Below are positions 763-20,144 of a stretch of DNA of 64,000 nucleotides, one piece after another. The position numbers and the translations under genes were made by a program. Position 1 is the stretch's first letter, and every line of letters begins with the position of its first letter. The stretch is from a virus. Taxonomy: Duplodnaviria > Caudoviricetes. Location of the stretch: the IMG/VR virus record IMGVR_UViG_3300009183_000045, one strand, 5' to 3'. A model generated the notes under the pieces. It made no database searches and was not told where the DNA came from. It saw nothing but the letters and a program-made list of their open reading frames with translations.

Positions 763-1236
763 ATGAAGATTAAAGATTCTCTGGTGGTTTACCTCCCCCA
801 GAGAATCATCATGTTTCCCCTACATCTATACATTAATTCACTAATAACAAGGGTGTTAAATAGATTGTATGAATGGGATATACACACTAGCAAAAAAATT
901 TCTGGCAAAGAAAAATATTTTAATCATTTTTTAGAAAAAGAAATATTAGACATTCTTTCTGAAATTAAAATAGTTTACAAAGATTTAAACCTTAAAATAT
1001 TTACCTTTTATATTAAATGTAATATTTCTGAAACAAATCAAGAATTTTTATCTTTAGACAATTGTGTAATTAAAAAAGTTTTAAAAACCTTCAACAAAGT
1101 GTGTGGAAAATATTTTATTAAAAATATACCCAAAAATATTTATTTTAAACCATCTGAAAAAAGTTTTAAAAATATAAAATGCGGAGTTTTAACTGGTGAA
1201 GAGTTGGAATTCCTAGTTAAACTAACAAATGATTAA
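763..1236 (+). CDS. Hypothetical protein
   Basis: 157-aa ORF overlapping the next start; no motif recognised; start codon uncertain. Confidence 0.55.
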   Translation: MKIKDSLVVYLPQRIIMFPLHLYINSLITRVLNRLYEWDIHTSKKISGKEKYFNHFLEKEILDILSEIKIVYKDLNLKIFTFYIKCNISETNQEFLSLDNCVIKKVLKTFNKVCGKYFIKNIPKNIYFKPSEKSFKNIKCGVLTGEELEFLVKLTND

Positions 1237-2125
1237 CATGTCTGAAAAATATATTATATTTCACATAGATGGTGGTGTAGGCAAAAGTGTGTTAGCCACC
1301 GCAGTTTGCACTTCTATAAAAGCAGCTCATCCAAACAGAAAATTAATTGTTATTTCTGCGTGGCCAGAAGTATTTTTACACAATCCCTTAATTTATAGAG
1401 TTTATAAAGCTGGTAATTTTGCATATTTTTATGAAGATTTTATTAAAAATAAAGACTCTTTAATTTTTCGACTAGAGCCCTATCATGCTCATGATTTTGT
1501 ACATCAATCTAAATCTTTAATTGAAATCTGGTGTGATTTACTGCACATTCCTTGCTCGACTCTACAACCCACTATAGTGTTGTCTCAAAGAGAAATTGTA
1601 AATGCTCAAAGTGTACTTGACAAAAAGAAATCTATATTAATGATTCATCCATTTGGTGGGGGAGATAATGAACCAAATTCCTATTCATGGGCCAGAGATC
1701 TACCACCAGCATTTGCTCAATCCCTGGTTAACAAGTTGTACAAACAATTCGATAAAGTTCTTCAAGTAAGGAGAGATAAGCAGATTTTATTAGAAAATAC
1801 TGTAAGTGTAACAGACAATTTGAGAAATTTATTTTGTTATGTTCATCTTTCAGATAAGATCATAGCCATGGACTCTATGATTCAGCATATAGCAGCAGCT
1901 TTAAACAAACCAGCGGTGGTTGGATGGATAGGCAATTCTCCAAATGTATTTGGGCATAAAATTCACACAAATGTACCACCACAACAAAGACCTGCCTTTA
2001 GACATTCCATTGATTCTTACATGGAAGAGTTGGATTGGACTGGAAAAAGATATCACGAATGTCCTTATGAAGACATTAATCACATTTTTGATGAAAAAGA
2101 ATTTTTAGAATATTGTAAATTATGA
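1229..2125 (+). CDS. GT-B fold glycosyltransferase, family 9 (heptosyltransferase)-like
   Basis: N-terminal HIDGGVGKSVLATAV, WPEVFLHNP, IHPFGG, and C-terminal IAMDSMIQHIAAALNKPAVVGW, which match the GT9 pattern (DS..H.AAA...P). Confidence 0.7.
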   Translation: MINMSEKYIIFHIDGGVGKSVLATAVCTSIKAAHPNRKLIVISAWPEVFLHNPLIYRVYKAGNFAYFYEDFIKNKDSLIFRLEPYHAHDFVHQSKSLIEIWCDLLHIPCSTLQPTIVLSQREIVNAQSVLDKKKSILMIHPFGGGDNEPNSYSWARDLPPAFAQSLVNKLYKQFDKVLQVRRDKQILLENTVSVTDNLRNLFCYVHLSDKIIAMDSMIQHIAAALNKPAVVGWIGNSPNVFGHKIHTNVPPQQRPAFRHSIDSYMEELDWTGKRYHECPYEDINHIFDEKEFLEYCKL

Positions 2126-6953: not shown

Positions 6954-7931
6954 TCATATTAATTCAAAATAATTAGGTTTTATGTTAAAACTCAGTCCCT
7001 CATTATAACTAGTTATGTTAATGTTGTTAATCATGAGCTTGGTTCTGCCTATTAAGTGCAAATACAGATGTTCGGTTTTAATGCCCCGCTCGTCCTGAAT
7101 TCTAAATAATTTTCCTTTTTGATAAGAAAAATACTGGTTGGTGTAATTTTTAATATTATTTTCTTCAAAATGTCTTGGTATGAAAACATCTTTATAAGAA
7201 GCATTTTCTGCGGGGTTAAACAAATCACACATTTCACCGTTTTCCGTCAACTTATAAAATTTATAAGTTGGAATCAACGTAGAATACACCTTTACAGTGC
7301 CCTGTGACCACCCTTCACAAGTTAAAAGATGTTTATGATTTTTGTTAATAAGTTCATCTTTATGTTTATTTAAACTAAGGTTTAAATAATTTTTATGCCC
7401 ATTTTCAGGCCAAACACCAATATTTGTGAGAATTTGTTTAATAAACCCATCATTTTTATATAGACAAAAATGCCCTCTAGAACCTATAAAATTATAGTTT
7501 TTATCCATTAAAGGTTGTATTATATTTTCAATATCACCCATTATGGTATCATTATCAAAATAACCACAATATTCATACCCCTCTAAGTCTTTTTTAAAAA
7601 TGTCATCAAAATAACACCTATAATCGGCAAATTTATACATTGGAGTTTTTGCTTTAAATACAGTTTCTTTTTCTCTAACGTTTAAAAGCAAAGGATCCGG
7701 GATATCTAAATCAAACCAATCTTTTAAAGTAGCAGTTAACATGGGATTTAAATCTTCAGCAGTTAAAAATTTATCTATTACATTAGAAGGTAGTTCCGGT
7801 TTATTTTTTATGTCATTGATAAACAAAAAGTCTATATTCTTATTTTGTGCCAAGCTGTACAAAAATAAATTAAAAAACGGATGCAGTTGTCCGTGCATGT
7901 GAAATATTAGACATATTTTATTTTTTTTCAT
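6954..7931 (-). CDS. DUF6625-like putative glycosyltransferase
   Basis: KICLIFHMHGQLHPFFNLFLYSL..NKNIDFLFI, YKFADYR, YCGYFDNDTIMGDI, GHFCLYKN; start reassigned to ATG 7931 just past the upstream stop. Confidence 0.65.
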   Translation of the reverse strand: MKKNKICLIFHMHGQLHPFFNLFLYSLAQNKNIDFLFINDIKNKPELPSNVIDKFLTAEDLNPMLTATLKDWFDLDIPDPLLLNVREKETVFKAKTPMYKFADYRCYFDDIFKKDLEGYEYCGYFDNDTIMGDIENIIQPLMDKNYNFIGSRGHFCLYKNDGFIKQILTNIGVWPENGHKNYLNLSLNKHKDELINKNHKHLLTCEGWSQGTVKVYSTLIPTYKFYKLTENGEMCDLFNPAENASYKDVFIPRHFEENNIKNYTNQYFSYQKGKLFRIQDERGIKTEHLYLHLIGRTKLMINNINITSYNEGLSFNIKPNYFELI

Positions 7932-7938
7932 ATTGGAT

Positions 7939-8940
7939 TTATAACAAACTTTGTATTTTTTTGAGTACATCCTCTTTTCTGAGTTTAAAATTTGCACAAG
8001 TAGGATCCGAGGCTCTGGCTTTATTAGTGGGAGTAAAATTTTCATAACCTTCAAGGCCACTATAGGCCATATTCATCCCCTTTGCTGTGCGTTGACTGCA
8101 CTGTAAAGCTCCGTTCTTAGGAGATACAAATAGTATTTTAGCTTTGTTTGGGTTGCAGTATATTTGGTTTGTACTTCCTGTACCGCCGATAACCATTACA
8201 AATTTTGCGTTTCTGAATAGTTGTACTTGTTCTATATAAGGCATTCCGGTTAATGTAATTTTTCTAATTGGTATATCGTTTTCATTTAAAAACTGTAGTA
8301 TTTCTTCTTGATTTAGCAAAAGCCTGCAATCGGAGTCATCCCTGCCTACATATATAAAATCTGTTGGGTTCTCTTCAGGAATTAAGTATTTTTCTAATTT
8401 TTCTGAAAAATAGGATAAAGGTAGGCACCCAGCCGTGGATGTTTTGGTTGAAATTACAAGATTTTCTTTTGTAGTATATAGAACATCACGTTCCGCAAAA
8501 ATTAGCTCATAACTATCTATATTAAAATTAAAAATGTGTCGCAGGACTTCTTTTAAAACGTTACCTGCTCTGCACCACGTCATAAGTATGGCAGTGTTCT
8601 CTGGTGTATATTTTTCAAGAACACCCAAATCTTTATAAAGCAAAAATTGCCCGATAGTCTCATGATGAAGATGCCAGTAATGGCTACCAGTATTTAACTG
8701 AAGCAAATTTTTATCACTCTTTATAGTATGTTTTGGAATTTTTTCCGGTATAGCTTCTTTTTTACTATCTTTAATCCTATTACCAGAACACGAACGTATT
8801 ATTTCTCCAAAAGAGTCTTTAGCTACATCTATATCCCCATCCATGGACATAAAAGATCCTTTAGGAAGCTCATATAAAAAATATGGATCTGGTTGAAAGT
8901 GCAAACTAGAGGATTTATCAAAGTATTTTGTTTTTTTCAT
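7939..8940 (-). CDS. Glycosyltransferase family 61 (DUF563)-like
   Basis: HYWHLHHE, IYVGRDDSDCRLLLNQEEI, MPYIEQVQLFRNAKFVMVIGGTGSTNQIYC match the GT61 core. Confidence 0.75.
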   Translation of the reverse strand: MKKTKYFDKSSSLHFQPDPYFLYELPKGSFMSMDGDIDVAKDSFGEIIRSCSGNRIKDSKKEAIPEKIPKHTIKSDKNLLQLNTGSHYWHLHHETIGQFLLYKDLGVLEKYTPENTAILMTWCRAGNVLKEVLRHIFNFNIDSYELIFAERDVLYTTKENLVISTKTSTAGCLPLSYFSEKLEKYLIPEENPTDFIYVGRDDSDCRLLLNQEEILQFLNENDIPIRKITLTGMPYIEQVQLFRNAKFVMVIGGTGSTNQIYCNPNKAKILFVSPKNGALQCSQRTAKGMNMAYSGLEGYENFTPTNKARASDPTCANFKLRKEDVLKKIQSLL

Positions 8941-8945
8941 AATGT

Positions 8946-9740
8946 TTAATAGGTCTGTCTTAAAAAGCCGTTGTATAGATTAACGCAGTATTTGTATTCT
9001 AGCTCATGCTTTTCATTAAGAAAACTACCGTAGTTTTTAATGTGAGGGTTTGTTAATTTTCTACTTTCATTAAGGTATATTTTAAAATGATAGGGTTTAG
9101 GTCCGTGGAAATGAATTAAATAGGCACTTTCATTTATGCCCCAATAAGGTTTCCAATTTATTTCATCTGATATTTTTTGATGTTTATAAAATTCATTTAA
9201 TGCTCCTTGATCTGTCGCTACAAATTTAAATTGTTTGGAAATTACAAAATCATAAAATTCCTGATATGTATCAAGCATATTTTTGGTATTACACCACATT
9301 ACACCGGAGTTGAACATCTTTACATCATTTTGATTAAATTCTCCAGTGGCTGCTATGGTTTCTGGAGTAAGTTTCAATAAAAAATCTGTAGGATCTCTGG
9401 TAAAAATAACGTCACAGTCTGTATACAAATAATACTCTATATCCAAGTTTAGCTGTTTAATTATTAAAGGTATATCTATGCGCAAAAAGGCCCCATAAAA
9501 AGTTTTGTGAGCAACCTCTTCAACCATTTCTGTTATTTTATTTTTAAAAGAAGATTCGTGTAATATTACAGTCACTCCATTTTCTTTTAGAAAATTAATG
9601 AATTCTTTATTATCACCATCATATAAGCAGTAAGCATTAAAATTGTAACTCAATGAACTTAGAACTGCAACTTTAGCCATGTCCATAAAGGCCCCGGACC
9701 TATTTTCATTCAAACAAAAAAACCAATTTATTTTTTTCAT
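8946..9740 (-). CDS. Glycosyltransferase family 8-like
   Basis: FLRIDIP, LYTDCDV (DxD), FNSGVM, DQGALN, NWKPYW, IHFHGPKP. Confidence 0.8.
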   Translation of the reverse strand: MKKINWFFCLNENRSGAFMDMAKVAVLSSLSYNFNAYCLYDGDNKEFINFLKENGVTVILHESSFKNKITEMVEEVAHKTFYGAFLRIDIPLIIKQLNLDIEYYLYTDCDVIFTRDPTDFLLKLTPETIAATGEFNQNDVKMFNSGVMWCNTKNMLDTYQEFYDFVISKQFKFVATDQGALNEFYKHQKISDEINWKPYWGINESAYLIHFHGPKPYHFKIYLNESRKLTNPHIKNYGSFLNEKHELEYKYCVNLYNGFLRQTY

Positions 9741-10522
9741 AACAATTTTTTAACTTTTTCTACATATTTAAGAGCTAGGTCATCATAGACATCATTTTTA
9801 TCATATGTATCAAACATTTCTATAGGCCTTTTTTCATTAACAGTGGCTCTTCCTCTTCGTCTTTTTTCTATCCAGTCTTCATAAGATCTGTTAAAATAAT
9901 GATTAACTCTTATTTTATTTGCTATTGATTTTTCTATTCTACCTTCTTGAGTTTCATCTATTAAATCGCCGTTTTCATTTACTATTCCTTTGGTGGTAGA
10001 AAACATATGAGGTGTCATATAACCTTTTATTTCATTGGGTTTAACTATTACTTTTACATGAGTATTAGGATGCCAGTCATCACGAGCTCTGTATAAAAAA
10101 TTTTCTAAACAAGTACCAGGTTTTCTTAATATATTTCCGGAAGAACCGTATATACGCCAGCTGACACCCAGCCCGGAATAATTTTTATAATCTTCTAGAA
10201 AAGTCCTTAAATCTGTTGGTTCTTCTGGCATGAAATATTCATCTGCATCACAATATATCATCCATTCAGTGTTGTTTCTTCCGTAATTTTTATAAGAAAC
10301 TTGATAAGCATAACCCTGTCTATCTGGGCTTGGTGAATCAAAATCTATTAAAAGTATATCATCTCGGAAAGATAGATCATTTATTTTATCTTCTGTGTCA
10401 TCAGTACTCTTATCATTAAAAACATAAAATTTTTCAACGCCAAGGGTCTTGTAATAGGTCAACCATTCCTGGATGTAATGAGATTCGTTTTTAACACAGG
10501 TTGTAAGAGAAAGATATTCCAT
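9737..10522 (-). CDS. GT-A glycosyltransferase (family 2/92-like)
   Basis: CVKNESHYIQEWLTYY, YVFNDKSTD, WMIYCDADEYF, KVIV and INHY-like RVNHYF motifs. Confidence 0.8.
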   Translation of the reverse strand: MEYLSLTTCVKNESHYIQEWLTYYKTLGVEKFYVFNDKSTDDTEDKINDLSFRDDILLIDFDSPSPDRQGYAYQVSYKNYGRNNTEWMIYCDADEYFMPEEPTDLRTFLEDYKNYSGLGVSWRIYGSSGNILRKPGTCLENFLYRARDDWHPNTHVKVIVKPNEIKGYMTPHMFSTTKGIVNENGDLIDETQEGRIEKSIANKIRVNHYFNRSYEDWIEKRRRGRATVNEKRPIEMFDTYDKNDVYDDLALKYVEKVKKLL

Positions 10523-16958: not shown

Positions 16959-17702
16959 ATGGACAGTACAAATACATTGAAGTCTTGTGTAGTTTTATTT
17001 AGCGGAGGCATGGACAGTACCGTTGTACTGCATCATGCATTAGCCAATTATGATAAAGTGTATGCTTTAGCTATTGATTATGGGCAACGTAATATTAGAG
17101 AATTAACAAATGCAGAAGATTATCTTACCAGTTACATTTTAAAATCTTCATATGCAGAAAAAATCAAATATTCACGCTTGCCCCTTCCAGTTAAGCTATT
17201 GAATTTTAATTCAGCATTAACAAATGATGAGATAGAGGTGCCTAAAATGAAAGAGGTTATTGGAGATCCTCAAAATAATGCTTATGTACCCAATCGAAAT
17301 ATGATATTTTTATCATTGGCCGTTGGAATGGCAGAGAGTGTGGGTGCAACTCACGTACTATACGGAGCAGCAAAAGCAGATGATACATCAGGGTTCTGGG
17401 ATTGTACAGCTGACTTTAGAAATTATCTAAATACCATTTTATCCTTAAATCGTAGGAATTTAATAGAGATTAAAACACCTCTAATAGATAAAACAAAAAA
17501 AGAAATTATAGAATACGGTATTGAATTAGGAGTTGAGTTTGCACTGACGAGGACATGTTACACAGAACACGAAAAATCCTGTGGAGAGTGTCCTAGTTGT
17601 TCAGCAAGAATTGCAGGGTTTATTCACTCCAAAAAAATTGATCCTCTAAAATATTCTAGAGATATACCGTGGCAAAATTGGAATTGTGAACCATTATATT
17701 AA
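16959..17702 (+). CDS. queC: 7-cyano-7-deazaguanine synthase QueC
   Basis: PP-loop FSGGMDS, IDYGQRN, YVPNRNMIFLS, DCTADF, TPLI...K, Zn site TCY...CGECPSCSARI. Confidence 0.93.
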   Translation: MDSTNTLKSCVVLFSGGMDSTVVLHHALANYDKVYALAIDYGQRNIRELTNAEDYLTSYILKSSYAEKIKYSRLPLPVKLLNFNSALTNDEIEVPKMKEVIGDPQNNAYVPNRNMIFLSLAVGMAESVGATHVLYGAAKADDTSGFWDCTADFRNYLNTILSLNRRNLIEIKTPLIDKTKKEIIEYGIELGVEFALTRTCYTEHEKSCGECPSCSARIAGFIHSKKIDPLKYSRDIPWQNWNCEPLY

Positions 17703-17705
17703 GAT

Positions 17706-18347
17706 ATGTGTGCAATTAGTGGATCTAACAATTTAGAAAAGGCGTTTGCTCTTTATAAACTTAATTTACAAAGAGGTGCCCAGTCCTCGGGTATGCTAGC
17801 AGTTGGCTCCAGAGGATCCAATGTAAGCAGAATAGCAAATACATATGATGAGGATTATATATCTCATTTTAAAAAACAATTTGCTCAAAGCCCTTTCAAC
17901 TATCATTATTTTTTATTCCATTCCAGGGCTCCTACAAATAGTACAGTAACAACCTGGAGCCAAGAAACTACACACCCGTTTGCGTCTTCCAGTGGCCCAG
18001 ATTATCTCGTAGCACATAATGGAATTATAACAAATTTTTCTTCTTTTGAAGAAAGTAAACATCTAACAATAGATTCTCAAATAATTCCAGAACATCTATC
18101 GAAAACTCAAAACATTGTTGAAACATTTTCAAAATACGAAGGATTGTTTACCTGTTGGATAGTAAACAGGGATAGAATACAATTAGTTAAAGCGGGCAGT
18201 TCTCTATGGATGGATGAAAATTCCTTTTCTTCTTCCAAGTTTGAAGGTGCAGAATGTGTGGAAGATGATGGTGTTATATTTGATTATAAAGACGGAAAAT
18301 TTGAAAAGAGTGGAACCTTTCCGTACACCAACACTTATTTTATATGA
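17706..18347 (+). CDS. Class II (Ntn) glutamine amidotransferase
   Basis: Catalytic Cys2 (MCAISG), RG..SSG, FHSRAPT, THPF, AHNGII, IDSQII. Confidence 0.85.
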   Translation: MCAISGSNNLEKAFALYKLNLQRGAQSSGMLAVGSRGSNVSRIANTYDEDYISHFKKQFAQSPFNYHYFLFHSRAPTNSTVTTWSQETTHPFASSSGPDYLVAHNGIITNFSSFEESKHLTIDSQIIPEHLSKTQNIVETFSKYEGLFTCWIVNRDRIQLVKAGSSLWMDENSFSSSKFEGAECVEDDGVIFDYKDGKFEKSGTFPYTNTYFI

Positions 18348-19042
18348 AAAAAGTAACTGCAATTATTGCAACAGAAGCCAAGTCAATGCAAGAATTTGAA
18401 AAACGTCCAATTTTTAAATCTCTACAGAGACATTATGACTCTAAAGATCTTTTTACTTTGAATAAATTTGATTTTGTTGTCGTAAAAAACAACAAAGAAG
18501 GTTTGTCTAAGGTTTATAACAAATTTTTAGAAGACCCAAAGTATTCAAAGGATATACTTTTGTTTGTACATGATGATGTTGAACTAGAAGATGTGTTTTT
18601 AATTGAAAAATTGAGAGAATCTCCTTATGAGGTAACTGGTCTGGCAGGAACAAAAAAGGCAGACTTGAGTAAACCTTCTGGTTGGCATTTAATGAGTGGC
18701 AAAGAAGATTGGGTTGGGGAAGTGGCTCATGCAGAAATTAAAGAGGGCAAAAAAAATGTTTGGACAACTAGTTTTGGATCCACAGATTCCAGAGCCCTTT
18801 TGATAGACGGACTTTTTATTGCAGTAGACGTCAAAGCTTTAAGGGATAAATCTGTTAAATTTAATGAAAAGTTTGAATTTCATCATTATGATTTAGCCTT
18901 CTGTCTTGAGTGTAATAAAGCAAAAGTAAAAATTGGTGTGTTGCCTATAAGAGCAATCCACCACGGTCTAGGTGATAGTATGCTTTCTGAAGATTGGAAG
19001 ATCAGTGCTGAAATATTCAAGCAAACCTACGGTACAAATTAA
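18344..19042 (+). CDS. GT-A glycosyltransferase (Glyco_tranf_2_5-like)
   Basis: LSKVYN, LFVHDDV, GLAG, IDGLFIAV, FHHYDLAFCL, IHHGLG; ATGA-coupled to the GATase. Confidence 0.75.
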   Translation: MKKVTAIIATEAKSMQEFEKRPIFKSLQRHYDSKDLFTLNKFDFVVVKNNKEGLSKVYNKFLEDPKYSKDILLFVHDDVELEDVFLIEKLRESPYEVTGLAGTKKADLSKPSGWHLMSGKEDWVGEVAHAEIKEGKKNVWTTSFGSTDSRALLIDGLFIAVDVKALRDKSVKFNEKFEFHHYDLAFCLECNKAKVKIGVLPIRAIHHGLGDSMLSEDWKISAEIFKQTYGTN

Positions 19043-19064
19043 AAACAAACTATATAATAAAAAT

Positions 19065-19658
19065 ATGAGCAGATCTAGAATTTATAATGATGAAGACTAT
19101 GACGGATCTTTGATCCACGAACGATTTGGTTACAGAATCTTTCGTAAAGAATACAATCCACTTGGTGTCCTTTATATTACCAGAGGCAATATGGACGTTA
19201 AAGATAATCTGATTGATTTAGAGGATAAACTATCTGATGATTTTATTTATTCTGATGATGCATTGAGCATTTGCTGGGAGATTCCTAACATGAATGCTAT
19301 CGGAGCTGTATTCTTTCAGCGTCTATTTGTGCAAGAAATTGCTAACCTTTTCAGAACAGACAAGTTTGGTCTTTATGATGTTGAAGTAAATGGAGATGAT
19401 TTAATGCTTCGCAAAAAGGGCATGGGGGAGAATAATAGAGAAGAATGGGGCAAAGCTAGTGTAAGCATTACCAAAGTAACAGACACAGTTGCCTTGGGTC
19501 ATTTTGGAATCAATATTAGTGCGGGTGAAAGAGCACCTAGTTTTGCATTTTCTCTTTTCTTAACAGATGAGTTGGTTGAAAAGTTGGCTAGCAAAATTGA
19601 TGACATTTTTTATGAAATTGTTCGGGATTGTTTTACAGCAACCACCAAAGTAATTTAA
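19065..19658 (+). CDS. DUF366-like protein (biotin/lipoate-protein-ligase fold)
   Basis: YDGSLI, RGNMDV..LIDLED, IYSDD, FQRLF, GDDL, KASVSI, HFGINI match my recollection of the DUF366/COG2029 pattern; start set at ATG 19065. Confidence 0.7.
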   Translation: MSRSRIYNDEDYDGSLIHERFGYRIFRKEYNPLGVLYITRGNMDVKDNLIDLEDKLSDDFIYSDDALSICWEIPNMNAIGAVFFQRLFVQEIANLFRTDKFGLYDVEVNGDDLMLRKKGMGENNREEWGKASVSITKVTDTVALGHFGINISAGERAPSFAFSLFLTDELVEKLASKIDDIFYEIVRDCFTATTKVI

Positions 19659-19754: not shown

Positions 19755-20144
19755 ATGGTTAAGAAAAAGTATAATGATGATCTATTTGTGTACCTTAACT
19801 GGATCCTTAAAAAACCAGTTAAGGAATTACAAGTTCAAAACACTCCATCTACCTACATAACTAATAGGTGGCTGTCTATGGTAGATGCCAGTACAGCCAA
19901 TATTATTAATGTAACATTTAATAGGTGGTTGATAAACAAAGCATTTAGTTCAGATAATTTAATGGCAGGAAAATTCTATAGAACATTAATGCCTTTTAAT
20001 AATAAAAGAATTTCTTATATTAAGAAACCCACAGCAGACAGTTCCAAAGATTGTGAAGACATTTCCAATCTAGCCAAAAATTTAGAAATGTCACAAAAAG
20101 AGATAGAGATGTATAATCAAACCCTTGATTTATTGAAGTTTTAA
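19755..20144 (+). CDS. gp62: Clamp-loader small subunit (T4 gp62-like)
   Basis: LNWILKK, YITNRWLS...NIIN, FYRTLMP..KRISYIKK, LEMSQKEIEMY pattern and length. Confidence 0.6.
   Translation: MVKKKYNDDLFVYLNWILKKPVKELQVQNTPSTYITNRWLSMVDASTANIINVTFNRWLINKAFSSDNLMAGKFYRTLMPFNNKRISYIKKPTADSSKDCEDISNLAKNLEMSQKEIEMYNQTLDLLKF

What the first reader, a model, noticed from the sequence alone, without database searches (positions are those of the whole stretch)
19065..19658. Phage-encoded DUF366 (BPL/LplA-like fold) as a possible tailoring enzyme
The motif order (YDGS, RG..V...D.ED, S.D, QRL, GDDL, K.SVSI, H.GIN) matches the uncharacterised, mainly archaeal/deltaproteobacterial DUF366 family, whose fold resembles biotin/lipoate ligases that adenylate a carboxylate and transfer it to an amine. 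Next to QueC, the carboxylate could be CDG or the acceptor could be a preQ1/G+ amine. This gives a testable function for an orphan family. Caveat: a TATAAT at 19053-19058 suggests it may have its own promoter.
Basis: partly seen in the sequence, partly recalled or inferred. Interest (0 to 1): 0.7.

Follow-up and report, generated by a model that had tools for sequence, protein, structure and literature searches.

The report
Phage DUF366, a QueC-linked ligase-fold protein
This phage gene belongs to the unstudied DUF366 family, has a biotin/lipoate-ligase-like fold, and sits right after queC in bacteria and several phage groups, so it is probably an unrecognised helper in making the tRNA/DNA base precursor preQ0 and not a phage-only decorating enzyme.

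Summary
Window 19065-19658 (+) is an intact 197-aa gene that matches Pfam DUF366 (E 1.6e-17). Its model matches PH0223 (PDB 2DDZ, Z 21.7), then biotin/lipoate ligases (Z 9-11.7).

- DUF366 follows queC in 79 of 80 Gastranaerophilales loci.
- The order is queD-queC-DUF366-queE in 25 of 30 DUF366-bearing genomes of the Desulfuribacillus phylum, with folE beside it in two genomes checked.
- It follows queC in one further bacterial MAG and three non-T4 phage-like contig types.
- In T4-like phages QueC-GATase-glycosyltransferase lies beside DUF366 in 14 of 49 loci. Five of five records without that adjacency carry QueC elsewhere.

Cellular operons that only make preQ0 carry DUF366, so I read it as a fifth component acting with QueC at the CDG-to-preQ0 step, not as a phage tailoring enzyme. 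Its chemistry is untested. A complete relative has QueD, QueE and QueC but no recognisable DpdA or FolE.

No searched paper mentions DUF366. Earlier unchecked notes of this scan report the same association on other DNA.

The parts
19065..19658 (+). DUF366 / PH0223-family gene (197 aa), BPL/LplA/LipB-like fold
   Evidence: PF04017 E 1.6e-17. AF2 model pLDDT 87.6. 2DDZ Z 21.7, and BPL/LipB/LplA Z 9-11.7. Family-invariant residues are kept.
16959..17702 (+). QueC (7-cyano-7-deazaguanine synthase), with the PP-loop SGGMDS and four C-terminal cysteines
   Evidence: PF06508 6.6e-55. TIGR00364 166.9 bits, above the cut-off of 150.3. Motifs read from the translation.
17706..18347 (+). Stand-alone class II (Ntn) glutamine amidotransferase-like protein with Cys2. 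Together with QueC it looks like a split form of Gat-QueC.
   Evidence: Begins MCAISG. Weak GATase_6/7 and GlmS N-terminal matches. PHROG matches to aminotransferase families. KVP40 has the same QueC-then-GATase order. The BLASTP match to the 9g Gat domain is only E 0.007.
18344..19042 (+). Glycosyltransferase-like protein (Glyco_tranf_2_5), always found together with QueC and GAT in T4-like phages
   Evidence: PF13712 7.4e-9. QueC, GAT and GT occur together in 14 of 14 adjacent loci and in 3 of 3 distant clusters.
19755..20144 (+). ORF129, a conserved downstream neighbour of DUF366 in T4-like phages; no known family
   Evidence: Homologue downstream in 78 of 78 loci with room, within 300 nt in 60. 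No Pfam or PDB match.
19053..19058 (+). TATAAT hexamer 6 nt before the DUF366 start codon (possible own promoter, unproven)
   Evidence: Sequence read directly. A TAnnAT-like hexamer is kept at the same distance in most of the eight relatives aligned. No -35 partner was found by the consensus scan.

Best explanation
The ORF encodes a genuine DUF366 (PH0223-family) protein whose single domain has the catalytic-module fold of biotin/lipoate protein ligases. DUF366 is a recurrent fifth gene of preQ0 (7-cyano-7-deazaguanine) gene sets. It is placed directly after queC and is often translationally coupled to it. In this phage it is therefore best read as a partner of QueC at the 7-carboxy-7-deazaguanine (CDG) to preQ0 step of the phage's own deazaguanine pathway: QueC here, QueD and QueE elsewhere in the genome as in the complete relative, plus a split glutamine amidotransferase and a glycosyltransferase. 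It is not best read as a phage-specific tailoring enzyme. Shown: family membership, fold, conservation of the family's invariant polar residues, and the gene-neighbourhood link. Inferred: that the ligase-like pocket binds CDG through its carboxylate. On that reading the protein either activates CDG with ATP, as BPL and LplA activate their acids, or hands it to QueC. The invariant K130, the G-D-D turn, H146/N150 and K195 would then form the active site.
For: Family and fold. Universal invariant residues shared by the phage and cellular clades. QueC lies directly upstream, commonly with a 4-nt overlap: 79 of 80 Gastranaerophilales loci and 22 further Melainabacteria-type loci. In five such genomes checked it is the only full-length QueC, and a canonical Tgt is present. 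queD-queC-DUF366-queE occurs in Desulfuribacillus and in 25 of 30 DUF366-bearing genomes sampled from its phylum; 29 of 30 have at least one que neighbour. folE lies beside the operon in two genomes, so DUF366 is additional to the four canonical enzymes. QueC-DUF366 also occurs in another bacterial MAG and in three non-T4 phage-like contig types, one of them ordered queD-queC-DUF366-folE-queF. In T4-like phages QueC/GAT/GT lie within 4 kb upstream of DUF366 in 14 of 49 loci. All five long records without adjacency still encode QueC-GAT-GT elsewhere. The complete relative has QueE-like and QueD-like genes. A low-confidence but collinear HMM-HMM alignment to BPL pairs G-D-D-L with P-N-D-L, K130-x-S-V-S-I with K-x-x-G-I-L, and G-H-x-G-I-N with G-I-G-I-N.
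Against: No biochemical datum exists. QueC works alone in organisms that lack DUF366: 12 of 14 control genomes lack it. 302 cultured phage records carry QueC, but only one dubious record has DUF366. Eight photosynthetic-size cyanobacterial genomes have DUF366 beside cell-wall genes with no QueC within 6 kb. In 35 of 49 T4-like loci DUF366 is not beside QueC, and its most constant neighbour there is ORF129. Pfam BPL_LplA_LipB does not match the protein. The HMM-HMM alignment has only 8.6% probability. The column of the BPL catalytic lysine (KWPND) holds Arg in cellular members and Val/Ile in this phage clade. Archaeal contexts were not examined here.
Confidence: 0.55

Rival explanations
1. One reading: a tailoring ligase. 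DUF366 adenylates a carboxylate (CDG or another acid) and joins it to an amine, or acylates an amine on a deazaguanine. Together with the amidotransferase and glycosyltransferase this would give a new hypermodified 7-deazaguanine in phage DNA.
For: BPL/LplA-like fold. The gene lies in one block with QueC, a class II GATase and a glycosyltransferase; relatives add an NAD-dependent sugar epimerase/dehydratase to the block. The T4-like clade has its own invariant residues (H18, R40, D65, W71, P74, T193, T194) and lacks the Arg that cellular members have at the BPL-lysine column, which could mean a changed substrate. One T4-like locus has glycosyltransferases instead of QueC/GAT upstream of DUF366.
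Against: The same family sits in cellular queD-queC-DUF366-queE-folE operons, where no tailoring is expected. In most T4-like phages DUF366 is far from QueC-GAT-GT. Pfam TGT and the 9g DpdA found no match in the complete relative, and a KVP40 QueF query found none in the relative or the window, so neither DNA insertion nor a preQ1 amine is evident. The universal catalytic residues are unchanged between the phage and cellular clades.
Confidence: 0.15
2. A non-catalytic partner. DUF366 would be a ligand-binding or scaffolding subunit with a degenerate ligase fold. It would hold CDG or preQ0, pass it between QueE, QueC and the transglycosylase, or regulate QueC, without chemistry of its own.
For: Its fixed position between queC and queE, with overlapping stop and start codons, suggests it is made in equal amounts with QueC. 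The BPL catalytic lysine column is not conserved, and Pfam BPL models do not match. PH0223 is listed as self-interacting (PMC1414084), and the 2DDZ sequence is present as six chains in that one entry, as expected of an assembly platform. Other BPL-like proteins of unknown function have been solved (3BFM).
Against: About seventeen positions are conserved across very distant clades. Many are charged or polar (D51, D54, Q85, R86, D111, D112, K130, S134, H146, N150, K195), which is more typical of an active site.
Confidence: 0.2
3. Unrelated neighbour. DUF366 would be a conserved gene of the T4-like backbone, paired with ORF129 near the primase and gp31 genes, with a role in replication or morphogenesis. 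Its position beside QueC in this phage would be an accident of cassette insertion.
For: ORF129 follows DUF366 in essentially every T4-like locus, whereas QueC does so in only 14 of 49. Group B T4-like contigs show primase, DUF366, ORF129 and gp31-like genes without QueC nearby.
Against: Independent QueC-DUF366 adjacency in two bacterial phyla, another MAG and three non-T4 phage types cannot come from T4 synteny. All five T4-like records tested that lack adjacency still carry QueC.
Confidence: 0.05

Closest known systems
PH0223 of Pyrococcus horikoshii (PDB 2DDZ), Pfam DUF366 / PF04017
   Same: Same family by HMM and by structure: Foldseek E 3e-11, TM 0.71-0.75; VIA-align Z 21.7, rmsd 2.2 over 175 residues. 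Single domain of about 190 residues.
   Different: Only 23-25% identical. The phage clade has its own invariant residues and a variable insertion at residues 118-129. PH0223 has no assigned function, so the match names the family and not the activity.
Biotin protein ligases and lipoate/octanoyl ligases (BirA/BPL, LplA, LipB; Pfam BPL_LplA_LipB)
   Same: Same catalytic-module fold: Z 9-11.7 over 146-168 residues, well above the next unrelated hits at 6.7 or less. Collinear counterparts of the PND(L), K-x-x-G-I-L and G-I-G-I-N motifs. These enzymes bind a carboxylic acid; BPL and LplA adenylate it (established knowledge).
   Different: No Pfam BPL match. 8-15% identity. The KWPND lysine column is not Lys. 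There is no GRGRxGR loop and no C-terminal or accessory domain. No biotinyl or lipoyl acceptor protein is evident in the gene neighbourhoods examined.
Canonical preQ0 pathway FolE-QueD-QueE-QueC (bacterial queCDE operons)
   Same: DUF366 lies inside such operons, between queC and queE. The window's QueC is an equivalog-level match.
   Different: The published pathway has four enzymes and no DUF366; E. coli and B. subtilis lack it. No searched paper mentions the family.
Phage 7-deazaguanine DNA modification systems (phage 9g Gat-QueC/DpdA; Vibrio phages KVP40 and nt-1; PMC6884629, PMC10516641)
   Same: QueC plus a class II amidotransferase. The nearest cultured QueC homologues are in KVP40-like T4-type phages (36-38% identity), which also have QueC followed by a separate GATase gene and gp31 further on. 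The complete relative encodes QueD and QueE.
   Different: Those phages encode DpdA, and the 2023 paper states that all deazaguanine-modifying viruses known then do. None was recognised in the complete relative. 9g and KVP40 have no DUF366. The glycosyltransferase is an extra here.

Membership tests
DUF366 (PF04017, PH0223-like) | Match to the Pfam model above its gathering score over the full domain | tested here: met
   64 bits against 29.9, residues 7-196 on profile positions 7-183 of 184
DUF366 (PF04017, PH0223-like) | Structure superposes on the only solved member, 2DDZ | tested here: met
   Z 21.7, rmsd 2.2, 175 aligned residues; Foldseek E 3e-11; model pLDDT 87.6
DUF366 (PF04017, PH0223-like) | Family-wide invariant residues (D-x-E-D, Q-R, G-D-D, K-x-S-V-S-I, H-x-G-x-N, C-terminal K) | tested here: met
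   All are present in P0001 and at least 93% conserved in both phage and cellular sets
Biotin/lipoate protein ligase family (BPL_LplA_LipB, PF03099) | Catalytic-module fold | tested here: met
   BPL, LipB and LplA chains at Z 9-11.7; Foldseek probability 1.00, E 4e-5 to 1e-3
Biotin/lipoate protein ligase family (BPL_LplA_LipB, PF03099) | Sequence-profile match to the family | tested here: not met
   No PF03099 hit at E 0.01 or better. HMM-HMM to five BPLs gave probability 8.6%, and to five LplA-like proteins 0.09%.
Biotin/lipoate protein ligase family (BPL_LplA_LipB, PF03099) | Conserved catalytic lysine (KWPND in BPL; K-x-S-G-S-A in LplA) | tested here: inconclusive
   In the low-confidence alignment, K130 pairs with the Lys of the K-x-x-G strand, while the KWPND Lys column is Val in the phage and Arg in cellular members. 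No residue-level structural superposition was available.
Biotin/lipoate protein ligase family (BPL_LplA_LipB, PF03099) | ATP-dependent adenylation of a carboxylic acid and transfer to an amine | not testable with these tools
   Needs an enzyme assay
preQ0 / 7-deazaguanine biosynthesis gene set | Gene neighbourhood or co-occurrence with queC, queD and queE | tested here: met
   In this window QueC lies 1.4 kb upstream within the same gene block.
Phage 7-deazaguanine DNA modification system (Dpd-type) | A DpdA DNA transglycosylase encoded by the phage | tested here: inconclusive
   No PF01702 match and no match to the 9g DpdA in the complete 227-kb relative. Two unknown neighbouring ORFs show no TGT-like resemblance. 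Divergent DpdA2, DpdA3 and DpdA4 forms were not tested with queries of their own.
Gat-QueC (glutamine amidotransferase fused to QueC) | Class II GATase with an N-terminal Cys, joined to a QueC domain | tested here: inconclusive
   Here these are two separate adjacent genes: QueC, then a 213-aa protein beginning MCAISG. QueC aligns to the 9g Gat-QueC C-terminal half at E 4e-19. The GAT aligns to the N-terminal half only at E 0.007.

The most novel reading that the evidence does not exclude
DUF366 is a missing enzyme of 7-deazaguanine biosynthesis: an ATP-dependent, ligase-fold enzyme that activates the 7-carboxylate of CDG. It might make the amide ADG or a CDG-adenylate that QueC or another enzyme then uses. 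It would be used by a sizeable minority of bacteria, some archaea and hundreds of environmental phages. In T4-like phages it would feed a glutamine-dependent, glycosylating branch that builds a deazaguanine derivative not yet described, delivered to nucleic acid without a canonical DpdA.
Probability: 0.25. Interest if true: 0.75.

Novelty: new variant of a known kind. Interest (0 to 1): 0.6.

Why it matters
DUF366 has had a crystal structure since 2007 but no function, and none of the searched literature mentions it. A reproducible placement after queC gives a concrete, cheap experiment: assay QueC with and without DUF366, using CDG, ATP and limiting ammonia. It also suggests that the textbook four-enzyme preQ0 pathway is incomplete for many organisms. 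For phage biology, it shows that a large group of uncultured T4-like phages (at least 584 IMG/VR contigs) carries a deazaguanine gene set of QueC, split amidotransferase, glycosyltransferase and DUF366 with no recognisable DpdA. That is either a new route into DNA or a phage investment in tRNA modification.

Tried and rejected
- Complex prediction of QueC with DUF366, each given as an alignment, returned 'no answer' (score 0.00). This counts neither for nor against binding.
- The idea that DUF366 replaces GTP cyclohydrolase I was rejected. FolE is present, and lies next to the operon, in DUF366-bearing genomes.
- The idea that the hypothetical protein between Gat-QueC and QueE in phage 9g is a hidden DUF366 was rejected. 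No HMM match was found.
- My recollection that ORF129 might be the T4 clamp-loader subunit gp62 was not borne out. A profile of nine homologues hit no relevant PDB chain or Pfam family.
- A search for fused forms found only one 402-aa aminotransferase-DUF366 protein on a 3-kb contig. I treat it as uninformative.
- Global-mode hhalign to BPL and LplA gave meaningless alignments; local mode gave the low-confidence collinear alignment.
- The search for related loci with broad cellular alignments failed because no stretch was conserved enough. The accepted query returned only the 80 best loci, all of one order.
- Single-protein scans of viral contigs for other DUF366 clades found almost nothing.
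- Nucleotide search of cultured phages found no match. The single protein hit, in 'Microcystis phage MaAM05', lies among bacterial-looking genes.
- The Atlas look-ups of the two unknown ORFs beside the block gave no usable lead.
- The first Radical_SAM family search of the relative missed its QueE-like gene. tblastn and NCBIfam later found it.
- Archaeal gene contexts were not reached with the handles available.

Full report
**The gene.** Window 19065-19658 (+) is an open frame of 197 codons, from ATG to TAA. A longer frame from GTG 18972 is possible. However, the 200 or more close homologues are 185-197 residues long and align from the ATG. Pfam DUF366 (PF04017) matches end to end at E 1.6e-17, 64 bits against a cut-off of 29.9. 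No PHROG or NCBIfam family names the protein. Only the spacing of one motif string is slightly wrong.

**Fold.** An AlphaFold2 model built on 28 phage homologues is confident (mean pLDDT 87.6, pTM 0.86).
- Foldseek against the PDB puts PH0223 of Pyrococcus horikoshii (2DDZ) first (E 3e-11, TM 0.71-0.75). It is followed only by biotin protein ligases and lipoate ligases (E 4e-5 to 1e-3).
- An independent all-against-representatives alignment gives 2DDZ Z 21.7. Eighteen BPL, LipB and LplA entries follow at Z 7.5-11.7, and unrelated folds score 6.7 or less.

At sequence level the relationship to ligases is very remote. There is no Pfam BPL match. An HMM-HMM alignment to five cyanobacterial BPLs has only 8.6% probability, although it is collinear over 164 columns. 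In it:
- G110-D-D-L pairs with P-N-D-L;
- K130-x-S-V-S-I pairs with K-x-x-G-I-L;
- G-H146-x-G-I-N150 pairs with G-I-G-I-N.

The column of the BPL catalytic lysine (KWPND) holds Arg in cellular DUF366 and Val/Ile in the T4-like phage clade. I treat this as consistent with a ligase-derived active site, not as proof.

**The family.** An exhaustive profile search found 412 cluster representatives at E 0.001 or better. A tree of 118 full-length representatives separates three groups: the T4-like phage clade that holds this protein, a second group whose two sampled contigs are T4-like phages, and a large clade of cellular and other phage sequences. Seventeen positions are at least 93% conserved in both the phage set and the cellular set: Y12, G14, D51, D54, I61, Q85, R86, G110, D111, D112, K130, S134, I135, H146, N150, P158 and K195. 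The phage protein therefore very likely does what its cellular relatives do.

Distribution of the family:

| Sample | DUF366 found |
|---|---|
| 14 control genomes | 2 (both methanogens) |
| Sampled Cyanobacteriota genomes | 134 of 301 |
| Sampled genomes of the Desulfuribacillus phylum | 41 of 401 |
| IMG/VR viral contigs | at least 584 |
| Cultured phage records | 1, a dubious record |

| Lineage | Result |
|---|---|
| Gastranaerophilales | QueC ends at or overlaps the DUF366 start in 79 of 80 loci; the 80th is cut by a contig end |
| Further small-genome Cyanobacteriota (Melainabacteria-type) | Same arrangement in 22 more loci |
| Five of those genomes | This is the only full-length QueC, and a canonical Tgt is present, so it is the housekeeping gene |
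| Desulfuribacillus alkaliarsenatis | Order queD-queC-DUF366-queE |
| 30 DUF366-bearing genomes of its phylum | 25 show exactly that order; 29 have at least one que neighbour |
| Two of those genomes | folE lies beside the operon |
| Another bacterial MAG | QueC-DUF366 |
| Three non-T4 phage-like contig types | QueC-DUF366, one of them as queD-queC-DUF366-folE-queF |

Exceptions exist. Eight photosynthetic-size cyanobacterial genomes have DUF366 beside SLH, peptidoglycan-binding and SpoIID genes, with no QueC within 6 kb.

**T4-like phages.** All close relatives of the window keep the block QueC, GATase, glycosyltransferase, DUF366. The two middle genes are swapped in some.

A wider sample changes the picture. 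Of 49 loci with at least 3 kb upstream, only 14 have QueC nearby, always together with the GATase and the glycosyltransferase. A homologue of the small downstream ORF129 follows DUF366 in essentially all loci. Five long records without adjacency all encode a full QueC elsewhere. In the three inspected, it lies with GAT and GT; in the one scanned with Pfam, the cluster is flanked by uvsX-like and gp41-like genes.

So in these phages the four genes co-occur but are not always linked. DUF366 is no more tied to the glycosyltransferase than to QueC.

The complete 227-kb relative also has a QueD-like gene between uvsX and gp41 and a QueE-like radical SAM gene. It has no FolE and no recognisable TGT or DpdA. 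A KVP40 QueF query also found nothing in it or in the window. QueD and QueE were not found inside this window. By analogy they lie elsewhere in the genome.

**Interpretation.** The family is built into cellular operons that contain all four canonical preQ0 enzymes, and the canonical product of those enzymes is preQ0 for tRNA. The simplest reading is that DUF366 is a fifth, optional component acting at the QueC step.
- Its constant place between queC and queE points to CDG, which is the product of QueE, the substrate of QueC and a carboxylic acid.
- The fold belongs to enzymes that bind carboxylic acids; BPL and LplA adenylate theirs.

I therefore propose that DUF366 binds CDG and either activates it or delivers it to QueC. 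This step is inference. A purely ligand-binding or scaffolding role is the main rival.

The phage clade has its own invariant residues and keeps company with an amidotransferase, a glycosyltransferase and, in some relatives, a sugar epimerase. But it is the less economical reading. Its preQ1-amine version lacks a recognisable QueF.

**The promoter caveat.** TATAAT is at 19053-19058. A TAnnAT-like hexamer is kept 6-7 nt before the ATG in most of the eight relatives aligned. The consensus scan finds no -35 partner. An earlier unchecked note of this scan describes leaderless early promoters in this genome. I did not test whether this site is one.

**Literature and earlier notes.** No paper in the searchable library contains DUF366 as a whole word, PF04017, COG2029 or IPR007162. 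PH0223 appears once, as a self-interacting protein in a two-hybrid screen (PMC1414084). The phage deazaguanine papers describe DpdA, DpdL, DpdM, DpdN and Gat-QueC, but not this family (PMC10516641). Earlier AI notes of this scan (83 notes in at least 64 genomes) report DUF366 beside preQ0 genes on other DNA. I read them after finding the Melainabacteria adjacency myself. I then verified the queD-queC-DUF366-queE order independently.

Noticed in passing
window 19755-20144 (+): ORF129 has no Pfam or PDB match. It is the most constant neighbour of DUF366 in T4-like phages: downstream in 78 of 78 loci with room, and within 300 nt in 60. It carries a conserved (Y/F)xxxRW(L/C)(S/T)M ... YIKK pattern.
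   Followed up: partly
L219:4880-5836 (-) and L221:6632-7588 (+), T4-like phage records G304 and G305: A GMP-reductase-like gene (NCBIfam PRK05458, E 1.7e-94) sits between QueC and the GATase. From memory, it recalls ToyE of toyocamycin biosynthesis. It hints at 7-deazapurine chemistry at the nucleotide level in these phages.
   Followed up: no
L007:6293-7300 (+); same position in L008 and L009: An NAD-dependent sugar epimerase/dehydratase (PF01370, E 4.8e-41) is inserted between the GATase and the glycosyltransferase of the block.
   Followed up: no
G001, the complete 227-kb relative; QueE-like at L015:912-1664, QueD-like at L015:8882-9343: The relative encodes QueD, QueE, QueC, GATase, GT and DUF366, but no FolE and no TGT/DpdA detectable with Pfam or the 9g DpdA. 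How a deazaguanine would reach DNA or tRNA is open.
   Followed up: partly
L262 (Vibrio phage KVP40, NC_005083 73681-76132): KVP40 has QueC followed directly by a separate class II GATase gene (KVP40.0125), with gp31 a few genes on. This is the same backbone as the window, minus the glycosyltransferase and DUF366.
   Followed up: partly
L001 (MW495066.1 108480-124956, 'Microcystis phage MaAM05'): The only cultured-phage record with a DUF366 hit is annotated there with fliM, fabI, glyS, mtgA, secF and engB. The region looks like bacterial DNA, so possible contamination or misassembly.
   Followed up: no
L125-L131 and L134 (4-6.5 Mb cyanobacterial genomes): DUF366 is flanked by an SLH-domain protein, a PG_binding_1 protein and SpoIID, not by QueC. 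In Melainabacteria a SPOR-domain gene follows DUF366. This recurring cell-wall neighbourhood is unexplained.
   Followed up: partly
L137:4170-6026 (+) and L138:613-2469 (+): A 618-aa QueC that apparently carries a LAGLIDADG intein lies directly before DUF366 in a phage-like contig.
   Followed up: no
window 6954-10522 (-) and 1229-2125 (+): There is a run of further glycosyltransferase-like genes (DUF6625, GT61, Nucleotid_trans and GT2, plus a weak GT9 match). The phage invests heavily in sugar transfer beyond the QueC block.
   Followed up: no
L011:1546-4641 (+): In one T4-like relative, two glycosyltransferase-like genes (a weak, sub-threshold GT2 match and Glyco_trans_1_2) and two unknown genes lie directly upstream of DUF366, where close relatives carry QueC and GAT.
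   Followed up: no
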